From: an uncultured virus (IMG/VR IMGVR_UViG_3300028797_000122)
Taxonomy: Duplodnaviria; Heunggongvirae; Uroviricota; Caudoviricetes
IMG/VR virus record: IMGVR_UViG_3300028797_000122
Length of the DNA stretch: 64,000 nt
Strand: one strand, 5' to 3'
Part shown: positions 11,928 to 46,285 of the stretch, piece by piece
Position numbering within the stretch: the first letter of the stretch is position 1
Layout of the letters: each line of letters begins with the position of its first letter
Made by a program: the position numbers and the translations under genes
Notes under the pieces: generated by a model
What the model was told of the DNA's origin: nothing
The model's database searches: none
What the model saw: the letters and a program-made list of their open reading frames with translations, nothing else

Positions 11928-12368
11928 TTATCCTACGATGTTGTCCATCTTGCCGTTAAGTGCGGCATTGACGGTATTCTGAACTTCGTCCAGTTCGCTG
12001 TCCAGCTTTTTCTGAGCATCGGCAGCGGCCTTCTGGTTTGCTTCCTTCTGTTTTTCAATTTCTTGGAAACGTGCGGCGAGAGACATCATTTTCTGTGAGT
12101 CGAGGTTATTCAGGTCACCTTGAACAGTCCTTGGTTCGACTTTATTCTGCTGCTGTTGCGGCTGTTGCTGTTGCTGATTAGCATTTGCAATTACCTGATT
12201 CTGCTGTTGTGTATTAGCCGTCGAAATAGTCTGCGGCTGCTGGATGGTAACGGCAGATTCGAACTGGGATTTGCCTTCGTTCCTTAACCATACGTCGTGC
12301 AGGGCGTTGATTGCAGTCTTGAACTTTTCGTCGTCGACGTATTCGTTGATGAACTTGATGAATGTCAT
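11928..12368 (-). CDS. Q-rich coiled-coil hypothetical protein with shared leader
   Basis: ORF track. FIKFINEY...KTAINALHDVW...QFES. GAGG RBS and late promoter upstream. Confidence 0.75.
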   Translation of the reverse strand: MTFIKFINEYVDDEKFKTAINALHDVWLRNEGKSQFESAVTIQQPQTISTANTQQQNQVIANANQQQQQPQQQQNKVEPRTVQGDLNNLDSQKMMSLAARFQEIEKQKEANQKAAADAQKKLDSELDEVQNTVNAALNGKMDNIVG

Positions 12369-32090: not shown

Positions 32091-32115
32091 TTTCTGAAAT
32101 AGCTGGTGCAACGTG

Positions 32116-33231
32116 ATGAAAAATATCTTCATAGAGTCTGTAAACAGCGTCATCGGATTGAGTGATGGCCAAAAGGGTGCAGTCGTGTCCTTGTATCGTA
32201 CCTTGTTTGAGGATGGCGCTGGGTACAAGCCTGCGAATAAAGAAGAGGATAAGAAAGAAGATAAGAAGGACGACAAGAAAGACGATAAGAAAGACGATAA
32301 GAAAGGCGGTGATAAAACGGATGATGCTCCAGCCGAATGGAAACGAAATCGCACACCGACTAATATGACCCCGGTCAAGAAGCGTGATGTTAAATACATA
32401 GCGTTGCACTACACGGCTGGCAATTCGTCTTCGTCTGGCTCTGCGTGTAGAACGAAATTCCCTGCCAACTGTTCAGCCGACTTCATCATTGATGATAGCG
32501 AAGTATACCAGTACAATCCTGACTTGGACCACTACTTTACATGGGCTATCGGTGTAAGCGACCCTCAGATTAAAGACAACTATGTAGCTGAGGCGAAAGC
32601 AAGGGGAATGAATGATGCGGCAAGTCTGTATGGAACTGCCAAGAATGCAAATACCATCTCAATCGAAATGTGCAGTAACTATAATGGCGAACGTCCTAAA
32701 AATGCATCACCGCTAGACCCTAACTTTTACTTGACCGAAGCTACCTTGGGGAATACGGCAAAGGTCGTTGCGTATTTGTTGAGTAAATATCCTGGCGCAA
32801 AGGTAATACGCCATTATGATGTCACTGGAAAACCTTGCCCCGGCCCGTGGTGCAGAGACGAGAAAGGAACGCAGCAATATCTTTCGTTTGTGCAACGCTG
32901 CAATGCTACGCCTGCTCCGAAAAGTGTTGAATATCAAGATGTCGAAGATTCATCGTTTGACAAGTCGCAGCCCTCTTGGCCAGATTTCGGTCGTCTGTTT
33001 GCTCCAGATAAAACGAAAACGACGGCAGGCGATGCGGCCAACGCTACTACGGAAAATACACTGAACGCCGTTATTAACTCAGTTAAAACCCCTGCCGCCA
33101 AGGTGCTTGCCGGGGTTATCTCGAAGATTAACCCTAATGCTTCCCCTAATGTTGTCGCCGAATTTGCCAACATGGTTGCTAGTAAGCCGGAGTTGTTGAA
33201 AAATGTACTCAAACTTGTATCAAATAAATAA
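32116..33231 (+). CDS. N-acetylmuramoyl-L-alanine amidase (Amidase_2) with shared leader and KKDD linker
   Basis: YIALHYTAG, SADFIID, NANTISIEMC and VIRHYDVTGKPCPG (Zn ligands H, H, C). Confidence 0.88.
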   Translation: MKNIFIESVNSVIGLSDGQKGAVVSLYRTLFEDGAGYKPANKEEDKKEDKKDDKKDDKKDDKKGGDKTDDAPAEWKRNRTPTNMTPVKKRDVKYIALHYTAGNSSSSGSACRTKFPANCSADFIIDDSEVYQYNPDLDHYFTWAIGVSDPQIKDNYVAEAKARGMNDAASLYGTAKNANTISIEMCSNYNGERPKNASPLDPNFYLTEATLGNTAKVVAYLLSKYPGAKVIRHYDVTGKPCPGPWCRDEKGTQQYLSFVQRCNATPAPKSVEYQDVEDSSFDKSQPSWPDFGRLFAPDKTKTTAGDAANATTENTLNAVINSVKTPAAKVLAGVISKINPNASPNVVAEFANMVASKPELLKNVLKLVSNK

Positions 33232-43146: not shown

Positions 43147-43896
43147 ATGAATCCGTACAAAATCTTTGTTGAATCCATGCAGGATGCAGGCATTGATTCG
43201 ACTACTATTGATGCGGTTGCTGCTATCCACAAAGCCATCTATGAGGCTGCCGAAGACGACTCTGATGACGATAAGAAGAAAGGCAAAAAGCCAGAAAAGG
43301 ACGAAAAGGAAGAAAAGGACGAAAAGGAAGAAAAGGAAGGCCCCGACGAGAATGAATTTGAAGGACCAGAGGATGACCCTCCTTCTGAAGACGATAAGTC
43401 CGATGATGTAGACGGAGCTCCTGACGAAGACCCGCCTGATTTCGAACCCGATGAAAGCCCGGAAACCGCAGCTAACGAACCGAACGCCGACGAAGGCGCC
43501 AAGGCTATCATGTACAATATCCTTACCCTCATGAATGCCAAGCAGAACGCATACCAGCAATACCACTGGAATGCCGAAGGCAAAGCTCTCCACGAGAAGG
43601 CTCAGGAATGCTATGAGCTCTATCAGGAAACGAAGGACAAGGTGGCGGAAACATTGCAGGCTACCTACAACGAAAACATTGATTTCAAGGTATGGTCGGG
43701 CAAGATTCCTAACCTTACGGACAAGGGTGCATTCCTCGCATCAGTCGATGAAGACCTTGACCAGATTTCCGAGTTCCGTTCCCAGCTCGAACACTTCGAG
43801 ACGTTTGGCTTGAATGGAACGCTTGATGGATTCATTGATGAATTGACTGGAATCAAGTATCACCTTATCAGGTTCTTTGAAAACAAGGACGCTTAA
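43147..43896 (+). CDS. Ferritin/Dps-like four-helix protein with shared leader and acidic linker
   Basis: YQQYHWNAEGKALHEKAQECYE....KDKVAE matches the Dps-like HW....H...E.Y......D..AE motif. Confidence 0.7.
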   Translation: MNPYKIFVESMQDAGIDSTTIDAVAAIHKAIYEAAEDDSDDDKKKGKKPEKDEKEEKDEKEEKEGPDENEFEGPEDDPPSEDDKSDDVDGAPDEDPPDFEPDESPETAANEPNADEGAKAIMYNILTLMNAKQNAYQQYHWNAEGKALHEKAQECYELYQETKDKVAETLQATYNENIDFKVWSGKIPNLTDKGAFLASVDEDLDQISEFRSQLEHFETFGLNGTLDGFIDELTGIKYHLIRFFENKDA

Positions 43897-43910: not shown

Positions 43911-44711
43911 ATGCGTAGAAATCCCGACATATTCGCCTTGCCGCCAGACCCGCTGCCAACCATGCTGATGACTCGTGACGATATCACCGAGTACATCAAG
44001 GCTAGGCTTGGCTATCCTGCGACAGAGATAGAAATGGAAGTGGAAAACCGAAACGGTCTTGGGCACATTGCCATGGCAATTCAAGACTCGCTCGACTACT
44101 TCTACCGTTATATGCAGTCTGAGGCCACTTACAGCGACTACATGATTATCCAGTTGAAACAGGGAATCATGGAGTATAGGGTTCCAGACAATGTGTACCA
44201 GCTTGTTGACTTGAACCCGAGCTACGGCAATACGTTCAGCCCGATGATGGCGTGGGATGTTGGCCCAGGCGAATCCCTTATGGGTGTTGGCGGCGCAGGT
44301 CTCGGCGGATTGGGACAGTTCGACCTTATCACCTATGCAGGCGCCCTCAGGTATCTGCAAGATGTTAAGAAATTGGTCGGAACCCAGTACAGCGTGAAGT
44401 TGCACCCGGTCGAGCACCGTATGCGTGTCTACCCGACACCGAAGACGGACAGGTTCGCAATCGCCCGTGTCTACTTGAAGGCAAAGCAGGCGGAAGTGTT
44501 CGCAAACCCGCTGTTCAGGGACTTCGTCGTGTCCCGTGCTGGTATGCAGCTCGGTATCATCCTCATGAAGGATACGGTCTCGCTCCCAGGTGGCGGAACG
44601 GTGAACGGGCAGACGATTTACACCACTTGGAAGGAAATCAACGACAAGAAACTCGAAGAAATCAAGAACGAGGCTGCAAGGCCGTGCATGATGACTGACT
44701 TGTCTAACTAA
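43911..44711 (+). CDS. gp13: Neck protein (T4 gp13-like)
   Basis: YIKARLGYP..EIE...AIQDSLDYF...LPGGGTVNGQTIY. Confidence 0.85.
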   Translation: MRRNPDIFALPPDPLPTMLMTRDDITEYIKARLGYPATEIEMEVENRNGLGHIAMAIQDSLDYFYRYMQSEATYSDYMIIQLKQGIMEYRVPDNVYQLVDLNPSYGNTFSPMMAWDVGPGESLMGVGGAGLGGLGQFDLITYAGALRYLQDVKKLVGTQYSVKLHPVEHRMRVYPTPKTDRFAIARVYLKAKQAEVFANPLFRDFVVSRAGMQLGIILMKDTVSLPGGGTVNGQTIYTTWKEINDKKLEEIKNEAARPCMMTDLSN

Positions 44712-45509: not shown

Positions 45510-45569
45510 ATGGGAAGCGAAGTTTAGGGTGAGACTATGGGAACCGACATGTAGGATGAGATTATGGGA
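45510..45569 (+). repeat. 27-nt tandem unit forming two in-frame 5-codon minigenes (MGSEV*, MGTDM*)
   Basis: ATGGGA at 45510, 45537 and 45564; TAG at 45525 and 45552. Confidence 0.75.
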
Positions 45570-45956
45570 GTTGAGAGTGCATTGCCGAGTATGATTGTGG
45601 GTGGTAACGTTATTGGTTACAGCGACCACAATGAGAACCTCTATAATGAACGTGATGTCATAGGGGAGTTTAACCGTCGTGCAATCAACGCTCCTGGCTA
45701 CGGATACAACGACATTCTTGCAACAATCGAGAAATTCAAGCAGAATCATGGATATGAGTTCCAGCCGCTAACCGAAGTGGATAAAAAGGAGCTTTATTCG
45801 TCAAGCGTTAGCACACCTGCCGGAAGCCTCTCGACTGTTGTCGATAAGGGCCCGTGCGGCACTTCCGTAACTACTGTGCAAAATCCTCCACAACCGATGG
45901 ATTCCGATGTGGCGAATGCAATGGCAATGCTCAAAGACTGCATCCTTCAAGGGTAA
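45564..45956 (+). CDS. Hypothetical protein
   Basis: ORF track. Confidence 0.65.
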   Translation: MGVESALPSMIVGGNVIGYSDHNENLYNERDVIGEFNRRAINAPGYGYNDILATIEKFKQNHGYEFQPLTEVDKKELYSSSVSTPAGSLSTVVDKGPCGTSVTTVQNPPQPMDSDVANAMAMLKDCILQG

Positions 45957-45960
45957 AATC

Positions 45961-46158
45961 ATGAAACGAATATACATAAATAAAAACGAGGCCAAGGAAA
46001 CGCCTTATGCGAGAAAATTGCGGATAGCGGAAACCGAAAATGGTAGAAAGCTGCGATGCCGTGTGGTTGAAAACAAGAAAAAGTATAAGAGAAGTCGGGA
46101 AATTCCCGACTTTAATTTTTTGTCTTGCAATTCATATTTTTTGGTGCTATATTTATAA
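45961..46158 (+). CDS. ArfA-like alternative ribosome-rescue factor
   Basis: MKRIYINKNEAKETPYARKLR...KLRCRVVENKKKYKR resembles the ArfA-family (F/L)RxRV(E/V)xxKK..Y.R core. AAGGGT RBS. Confidence 0.55.
   Translation: MKRIYINKNEAKETPYARKLRIAETENGRKLRCRVVENKKKYKRSREIPDFNFLSCNSYFLVLYL
46092..46121 (+). terminator. Intrinsic terminator inside the ArfA-like ORF
   Basis: aagtcggga-aat-tcccgactt then taatttttt, upstream of the stop at 46156-46158. Confidence 0.7.
46125..46153 (+). promoter_or_regulatory. Sigma70-type promoter TTGCAA-N17-TATATT for the sigma-factor operon
   Basis: Exact 17-nt spacing. Confidence 0.6.
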
Positions 46159-46285
46159 TAGTATTAAACCTGTTCATTTGGACAACAGGGTTAATACCGT
46201 TTAATAGCAAGATGACGGCACAATATAATCAAATTGTTAATCGTGAATAAAGCAACCAGTGGCCGTACCTCTTGTATGAGGAGAT

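What the first reader, a model, noticed from the sequence alone, without database searches (positions are those of the whole stretch)
45961..46158. Phage ArfA-like gene with an intrinsic terminator inside the ORF (non-stop mRNA architecture)
Seen: a small basic ORF with RCRVVENKKKYKR. A 9-bp hairpin (46092-46112) and T-tract lie right after this motif and about 45 nt before the stop. The remaining codons (FNFLSCNSYFLVLYL) are hydrophobic and overlap the next promoter. Established: E. coli arfA and B. subtilis brfA are expressed from truncated non-stop mRNAs, so tmRNA tagging destroys the product unless trans-translation is overloaded. Inference: the phage carries its own back-up ribosome-rescue factor with the same sensing logic, possibly countering host defences that cleave mRNA or tRNA.
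Basis: partly seen in the sequence, partly recalled or inferred. Interest (0 to 1): 0.75.

Follow-up and report, generated by a model that had tools for sequence, protein, structure and literature searches.

The report
Stop-less phage ribosome-rescue factor candidate
A jumbo phage carries a conserved gene for a tiny basic protein whose reading frame runs into a conserved terminator-like hairpin before any stop codon, so its message likely lacks a stop and the protein, a likely distant relative of the ribosome-rescue factor ArfA, would build up only when the host's main rescue system (tmRNA) is overloaded.

Summary
ORF 45961-46158 is a real gene (pN/pS 0.11 over codons 1-43). A 9-10 bp hairpin and U-tract start at codon 44, 45 nt before the stop. 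The hairpin is nearly frozen in close kin and is rebuilt from other bases in distant syntenic phages. The frame beyond it is not conserved (2-58 residues), and one relative reads on into the next gene. The tail is the next promoter, not a conserved hydrophobic segment.

The protein fails the ArfA profile test and lacks KGKGS and KH. It belongs to an unnamed family, seen so far in phage contigs, whose C-terminal half weakly resembles ArfA and DUF7230. Of 23 loci, 7 have the hairpin first and 13 have an ordinary stop.

Best reading (0.55): an ArfA-like rescue factor under tmRNA control. Termination, tagging and rescue are untested. Phage ArfA is already annotated in two papers. This scan noted the design in 29 findings, one in close kin (e1-5823688).

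The parts
45949..45953 (+). Shine-Dalgarno-like AAGGG in the last codons of the upstream 130-aa gene (stop 45954-45956), 7 nt before the ATG
   Evidence: Sequence; AAGG kept in all 10 aligned loci; SD-like words before 67 of 114 genes against a shuffled mean of 19
45961..46092 (+). Conserved coding core, codons 1-44: predicted helix 15-24, NG turn, LRxRVV, KKKYKR
   Evidence: pN/pS 0.11 in 15 distinct sequences; family profile; low-confidence AlphaFold model, pLDDT 68, pTM 0.30
46091..46113 (+). In-frame terminator-like hairpin, codons 44-51
   Evidence: pS 0.07 against 0.46 in the core; other bases with pairing kept in L058/L059 and L061
46111..46121 (+). U-tract TTTAATTTTTT; predicted RNA 3' end about 46117-46119, giving a stop-less frame of about 52-53 codons
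   Evidence: Sequence, invariant in 10 aligned loci; the end position is inferred from general terminator behaviour
46122..46158 (+). Unconserved rest of the frame up to the first stop
   Evidence: Frameshifts and tails of 2-58 residues among 32 proteins; codon score -5.1
46125..46153 (+). Sigma-70-type promoter-like site TTGCAA-17-TATATT with TG, likely driving the sigma-factor gene
   Evidence: TTGCA...TATATT also present in relatives
45564..45956 (+). Upstream 130-aa gene of unknown function, likely co-transcribed
   Evidence: a similar gene (judged by eye) lies upstream in L058 and L061
46286..47029 (+). Downstream sigma-70-family factor gene; marks the syntenic clade
   Evidence: TIGR02980 E 1.6e-6, TIGR02937 E 3e-6, both below cut-off; phrog_351 E 2.9e-5

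Best explanation
The gene encodes a conserved basic protein of about 50 residues whose frame enters a conserved terminator-like hairpin before any stop codon, so its mRNA likely ends without a stop, and the product is likely an ArfA-like back-up ribosome-rescue factor that would accumulate only when host tmRNA tagging is overloaded. Shown: coding constraint up to codon 44; the hairpin and U-tract kept as a structure; no constraint on the frame or stop beyond them. Inferred: transcription of the operon ends near 46117-46119; ribosomes stall at that end; tmRNA-SmpB tags the 52-53-residue product for decay. When tagging is saturated, for instance by heavy phage translation or by host RNA-cutting defences, some product would be released. 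It would put its KKKYKR segment into the empty mRNA channel and offer the LRxRVV strand to a host release factor, as ArfA residues 25-30 do with RF2 (PMC8012679, section 7). Family members with an ordinary stop would be the unregulated form.
For: Architecture: pS falls from 0.46 in the core to 0.07 in codons 44-54. Distant syntenic phages keep a hairpin right after YxR with other bases: L058 AGAAGCCGG/CCGGCTTCT; L061 AAAGTCCAA/TTGGACTTT, shifted one base against the codons, so the peptide there changes while the stem stays (pairs read by eye). Of 23 loci, all 7 with z of -2.4 or lower have their stop 14-50 codons away; 13 of the other 16 stop within 8-13 codons. The stop-less product would be about as long as the ordinary-stop forms. 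P0151 has no stop at all and reads into the sigma gene. Only 3 of 113 terminator-like calls in this phage sit this way. Family link: an ArfA profile built without the bridging sequence scores 14 of 27 family representatives above all 133 basic decoys; profile-profile score 15.2 against a null maximum of 15.1, 0 of 300 shuffles. A gene annotated ArfA in Pseudoalteromonas phage J2-1 joins an ArfA-type N-half to this family's C-half (17.8 bits). 8 family members hit DUF7230 at E 1.7e-5 to 3.5e-3 (3 of 25; 5 more). The same layout controls arfA and brfA (PMC8012679 section 7; PMC6881298 passages).
Against: The protein itself has no Pfam or NCBIfam match, no PF03889 or PF23876 match and no PDB match with any of three queries. 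Its own score against the ArfA profile (3.4 bits) ties the best decoy. In the reverse direction, 8 of 11 ArfA sequences score within the decoys. hhalign probability against E. coli ArfA is only 3-4%. KGKGS is absent. The KH motif shared by ArfA and BrfA is absent here and present in 5 of 27 representatives. The N-half is unrelated to ArfA. The U-tract is interrupted. In one RNA library a 171-nt contig identical to the window (46068-46238) and a 5,925-nt contig of a relative bridge the terminator; this may be read-through or DNA. 3 of 23 loci have long tails without a hairpin. A closely trailing ribosome can suppress in-frame terminators in some bacteria (recalled), and the host is unknown.
Confidence: 0.55

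Rival explanations
1. Same non-stop control and same ribosome site, different outcome: the peptide binds the empty mRNA channel but does not recruit a release factor. It would shield or park stalled ribosomes, or compete with SmpB-tmRNA.
For: Similarity to ArfA is limited to about 20 C-terminal residues. The best-conserved positions, KE..R..RI...NG, have no ArfA counterpart. KH is missing.
Against: The aligned stretch includes the equivalent of ArfA F25 and the RF2-binding strand 27-30 (PMC8012679 section 7). Negative feedback by tmRNA makes most sense for a factor that replaces tmRNA.
Confidence: 0.18
2. No sensing. The hairpin is just the operon's terminator, the stop codon was lost, and enough protein comes from read-through or from release by host factors. 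The protein may still be a rescue factor.
For: The gene is last in its run of genes, directly before a promoter. Most unlinked family members have an ordinary stop (16 of 18 lack the hairpin). RNA-library contigs bridge the terminator.
Against: No stop was found before the hairpin in any of 32 close proteins or in the distant syntenic loci, although the stem was rewritten. The layout recurs in unlinked loci L066 and L079. The tree forces at least 2 changes of state but is mostly unresolved. Read-through products would carry arbitrary tails, once a whole sigma factor.
Confidence: 0.12
3. Attenuator-like use in cis: a ribosome on the hairpin blocks termination, so translation status sets read-through into the sigma-factor gene.
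For: The hairpin is in frame, and the sigma gene follows in all syntenic loci examined.
Against: The sigma gene has its own conserved promoter-like site after the hairpin. The protein is conserved in loci with no hairpin and other neighbours. L066 and L079 have a hairpin but no sigma gene after it.
Confidence: 0.07
4. A basic nucleic-acid-binding or virion protein unrelated to ribosome rescue; the ArfA likeness comes from lysine/arginine content.
For: Weak scores. The gene lies among late and structural genes (neck protein at 43911-44711). One family segment sits inside a 303-aa acidic protein (P0055).
Against: Column-shuffled and basic-decoy controls are exceeded at family level. This reading does not explain the stop-less layout.
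Confidence: 0.08

Closest known systems
ArfA (YhdL, Pfam PF03889) of E. coli and other gamma/beta-proteobacteria
   Same: Size; basic C-terminal segment; predicted helix followed by a hydrophobic residue and an RxRV strand; expression from a stem-loop inside the frame; unconserved C-terminus (PMC8012679 section 7).
   Different: No profile match; no KGKGS; no KH; unrelated N-half; the tail is promoter DNA rather than a conserved hydrophobic segment; the stem is a short terminator type rather than the long stem E. coli arfA folds into.
BrfA (YqkK) of Bacillus subtilis
   Same: Rho-independent terminator inside the coding region that would make the product depend on failure of trans-translation (PMC6881298, passages); N-terminal helix and basic tail.
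   Different: No hit in the PDB sequence searches; no KH; no pairwise comparison with BrfA could be run, and the paper's supplementary alignment was not seen.
Phage genes annotated ArfA (pelagiphage HTVC027P gp30, PMC12753301; Citromicrobium phage RXM g10, PMC8953757; Pseudoalteromonas phage J2-1 ATN93434.1) and DUF7230 (PF23876)
   Same: Phage-borne. The J2-1 and DUF7230 proteins share the RxRVVxDKxKYxRK half with this family. RXM g10 also has a hairpin before its stop.
   Different: They have ArfA-type or NPxA-type N-halves, while this family has KE[ST]xxxRxxRIxxxxNG. The passages seen name the gene by annotation only, with no test and no mention of a non-stop mRNA.

Membership tests
ArfA (PF03889) | Profile match over the curated cut-off | tested here: not met
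   no match; E. coli ArfA control scores 89.5 bits
ArfA (PF03889) | KGKGS segment before YxR | tested here: not met
   Present (or KGRGS) in 10 of 11 ArfA-type sequences; absent here and in the 27 representatives
ArfA (PF03889) | Hydrophobic residue 25 and strand 27-30 that bind RF2 | tested here: inconclusive
   LRCRVV aligns with FRQRVE at hhalign probability 3-4%; the model shows no strand and is low confidence
ArfA / BrfA | Lys-His motif in the mRNA channel | tested here: not met
   Absent in this protein; 5 of 27 family representatives have it
ArfA / BrfA | Stem-loop or terminator inside the frame before the stop | tested here: met
   Sequence and conservation only
ArfA / BrfA | mRNA really ends there and the product is tmRNA-tagged | not testable with these tools
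   Only assembled contigs of RNA libraries were available
ArfA / BrfA | RF2-dependent peptide release on non-stop ribosomes | not testable with these tools
BrfA | Sequence similarity to BrfA | tested here: inconclusive
   No PDB chain hit at E up to 10, but HMMER's filters drop weak matches and no pairwise test was possible
DUF7230 (PF23876) | Score of 27 bits or more | tested here: not met
   No match for this protein; best family member 25.3 bits, C-half only
ArfB (YaeJ) | GGQ peptidyl-tRNA hydrolase domain | tested here: not met
   No GGQ in the 65-aa sequence; no PF00472 match in 5 related phage records

The most novel reading that the evidence does not exclude
An undescribed family of release-factor-recruiting rescue peptides, distinct from ArfA, BrfA and ArfT and carried by jumbo phages of gut anaerobes. 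It has switched more than once between a constitutive form with a stop codon and a tmRNA-sensing form without one, and it lets the phage keep ribosomes turning over when host defences cut mRNA or tRNA.
Probability: 0.3. Interest if true: 0.75.

Novelty: new variant of a known kind. Interest (0 to 1): 0.52.

Why it matters
ArfA-type factors are reported only in gamma- and some betaproteobacteria and a few Bacillus species (PMC11633108, passages), and a review expects further small factors that sequence searches miss (PMC8012679, passages). This family gives a concrete candidate with natural regulated and unregulated versions side by side. If it works, phages bring their own ribosome-rescue factor and wire it to the host's tmRNA load. 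That links ribosome quality control to phage counter-defence and can be tested with a 50-residue peptide.

Tried and rejected
Direct family scans (Pfam, NCBIfam, PHROGs) gave nothing beyond phrog_1375 at E 0.12. tblastn against cultured phages gave no match for the core. PDB sequence searches were empty. The ESM Atlas gave unnamed clusters at 0.90 and a DUF7230-containing cluster at 0.89, a lead only. The AlphaFold model was too weak for a fold search, so none was run. Complex prediction with RF2 was not available, so nothing was folded.

RNA data were contigs only. They cannot show ends, strand or level, and three of the four runs laid were small-share holders. L035 was rejected as a chance match. 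The longer 83-aa frame from ATG 45907 was rejected: relatives have stops 9-12 codons upstream of the 45961 start. A capsid-targeting N-terminus (recalled motif type) was rejected because the INE-like word is not kept (KISD and NINC variants).

The host was not identified. The only GTDB hit is the phage contig itself inside a Bacteroidaceae MAG; none of the other 400 genomes of that phylum carried the family; strong SD use fits Bacteroidota poorly (recalled). No tmRNA, SmpB or release factor was found in the two complete close genomes. The tree on 40 columns is mostly unresolved. Scripts had bugs and were rerun. The gene set missed this ORF, hence.

Literature: DUF7230 gave 0 papers; phage-encoded + ribosome rescue + non-stop mRNA + terminator gave 1 listing, about RNase R; Fibrobacter + jumbo phage + rumen gave 0. 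Subscription papers are not covered.

Full report
Setting. The window is the first 64 kb of a 119-kb virus record. A complete 422-kb record, G001, carries the identical gene, so this is a jumbo phage. The neighbours are a head-tail adaptor, a sigma-70-family factor, a metallopeptidase, a glycosyltransferase and a clamp loader. Habitat labels returned by the tools point to ruminant gut. The host is unknown.

Observation. ORF 45961-46158 encodes 65 aa; its first 53 residues hold 17 K/R and 7 D/E. An AAGGG sits 7 nt before the ATG. The hairpin spans 46091-46113 and the U-tract 46111-46121, with z = -4.3 against 200 shuffles. It begins in codon 44, directly after KKKYKR, and the stop is 45 nt after the last G-C pair. 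A TTGCAA-17-TATATT site lies in the tail, and the same pattern occurs 20 times in the record.

The gene is real, and its coding constraint ends at the hairpin. In 15 distinct sequences out of 20 close loci, codons 1-43 have pS 0.46 and pN 0.05. Codons 44-54 have pS 0.07, with 2 variable columns of 33 against 42 of 129 in the core. Beyond the U-tract the alignment breaks up with insertions and deletions. Among 32 proteins the tail is 2 to 58 residues long, clearly hydrophobic in 3 and of negative hydropathy in 19. In P0151 the frame never stops and continues into the sigma factor (41% identical to the window's sigma factor over 244 aa). That is one cluster known as protein only.

The hairpin is kept as a structure. 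A profile search of 1.84 billion representatives gave 29 hits: 3 close, 25 distant family members and 1 spurious. A second round gave 142 hits among 348 candidates. The family pattern is KE[ST]xxxRxxRIxxxxNGxxLRxRVVxxKKKYxR. In distant phages with the same gene order, L058/L059 and L061, a hairpin and U-tract again follow YxR, built from other bases. L058 turns a T-A pair into C-G. L061 turns three G-C pairs into C-G, A-T and A-T and is shifted by one base against the codons (read by eye, no covariation statistic). For one search I used 23 loci, leaving out duplicates and most near-copies. Seven have a hairpin with z of -2.4 or lower and a stop 14-50 codons away: all 5 syntenic loci, plus L066 (weak U-tract) and L079. 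Of the 16 others, 13 stop 8-13 codons after YxR and 3 have tails of 22-28 codons without a hairpin. A tree needs at least 2 and at best 4 changes between the two states, but 15 of 20 inner branches are open. As a control, 113 terminator-like sites were called in G000 plus 300 kb of G001: 81 follow or overlap a stop, and 3 lie up to 200 nt before the stop of a frame with an SD-led start, this one included.

Relation to ArfA. The protein itself matches nothing. At family level the link is weak but above the controls. Against E. coli ArfA (NC_000913.3) hhalign aligns 22-24 columns at E 0.011-0.014 and probability 3-4%. Against a profile of 10 ArfA-type sequences the score is 15.2, with 0 of 300 column shuffles reaching it (maximum 15.1). 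That profile puts 14 of 27 family representatives above all 133 basic decoys, but this protein only ties the best decoy. In the reverse direction only 1 of 11 ArfA-type sequences beats all decoys, and 8 lie within them. That one is the annotated ArfA of Pseudoalteromonas phage J2-1, which has an ArfA-type N-half and this family's C-half without KGKGS. DUF7230 proteins bridge in the same way. KH follows YxRxx in 5 of 27 representatives and not here. The AlphaFold model (pLDDT 68, pTM 0.30) shows a helix at 15-24 and little else. I therefore do not file it as an ArfA; the claim is that it likely works like one.

Mechanism. Shown: coding core, conserved in-frame hairpin and U-tract, no constraint downstream. 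Inferred from arfA and brfA (PMC8012679, section 7 read in full plus passages; PMC6881298, passages and section 10): termination near 46117-46119, stalling, tmRNA tagging and decay, and release of a 52-53-residue product when trans-translation is saturated. That length matches the forms with an ordinary stop (mostly 44-55 aa). More weakly inferred: binding in the mRNA channel and recruitment of a release factor through the LRxRVV strand. Counter-defence is the least supported step. G001 has RtcB and tRNA genes and no tmRNA, SmpB or release factor. G005, whose family member has an ordinary stop, carries its own tmRNA; one case is no pattern. Against clean termination: the U-tract is interrupted, and two contigs of one RNA library bridge the site, which may be DNA or read-through.

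What is known. Phage ArfA genes are annotated in PMC12753301 (HTVC027P gp30, highly expressed early and late; passages) and PMC8953757 (RXM g10; passages), without functional test in the passages seen. Of the 10 ArfA-type loci fetched from the phage collection, 2 show a hairpin before the stop by eye: RXM and an unverified record. PMC6514570 (passages) has no mention of phage in its main text. PMC11633108 (passages) restricts chromosomal ArfA to gamma- and some betaproteobacteria and 10 Bacillus species. My searches (listings and abstract starts) showed no paper on a non-stop phage rescue gene or on this family. Subscription papers and the supplements of these papers were not seen; the BrfA alignment in the supplement of PMC6881298 may bear on family membership. 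Within this scan, 29 earlier findings in at least 26 genomes hold the same words (8 shown), and e1-5823688 is a close relative. These are unchecked notes and not evidence.

Verdict. A real, well-conserved stop-less gene design in an unnamed phage family with a weak ArfA link: a new variant of a known kind. Interest 0.52; function untested.

Noticed in passing
P0151 (protein only): A family member whose frame stays open through the terminator region and the intergenic DNA into the sigma-factor gene, called as one 324-aa protein.
   Followed up: partly
P0055 residues 77-115; P0038 and P0040 similar: The family segment sits inside a 303-aa acidic protein between Glu-Ser words, which recalls head proteins cut by a prohead protease (recalled motif type); it could be a virion-delivered form.
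   Followed up: no
window 46161-46197 (+): A second hairpin (7 + 6 bp) just after the promoter, in the leader of the sigma-factor gene; present in this sub-lineage (L024, L025) and absent from the nine other loci aligned.
   Followed up: partly
G005:C1:123310-123663 (L081): A 424-kb phage with an ordinary-stop member of the family encodes its own tmRNA (tag ANTYAMAA) and, about 4 kb away, RtcB.
   Followed up: partly
L093 (OL963731.1, Citromicrobium phage RXM g10): The annotated phage ArfA has an 11-bp hairpin in frame before its stop; the passages of its genome paper that I saw do not mention it.
   Followed up: partly
L086, L088, L091, L092 (phages pf16, RsoM2USA, Cr30, CRP-212): ArfA-type small ORFs with KGKGS that are not annotated in their GenBank records; L090 (phage Arash) carries one labelled 'ribosomal protein L2'.
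   Followed up: partly
L099: An ArfA/DUF7230-type N-terminus whose frame continues for about 130 more codons into another domain.
   Followed up: no
L104 7375-7797 (+) and L108 10664-12898 (-), stretches of G001: The two other terminator-like hairpins that lie shortly before a stop (71 and 20 nt); they look like chance hairpins in coding DNA.
   Followed up: no
window 11928-12368 (-), 32113-33231 (+), 43147-43896 (+); G000 66878, 68431, 70162, 94724: Several proteins begin with a short F-[ILVN]-E-like word (FINE, FIES, FVES, FLEG, LFES, FLEA, LFEE), possibly a shared head-targeting or cleavage signal.
   Followed up: no
L095 (JAFXNA010000004.1): A 317-kb contig of a close phage relative is binned inside a Bacteroidaceae MAG; SD use and the promoter type of the phage cast doubt on that as host.
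   Followed up: partly
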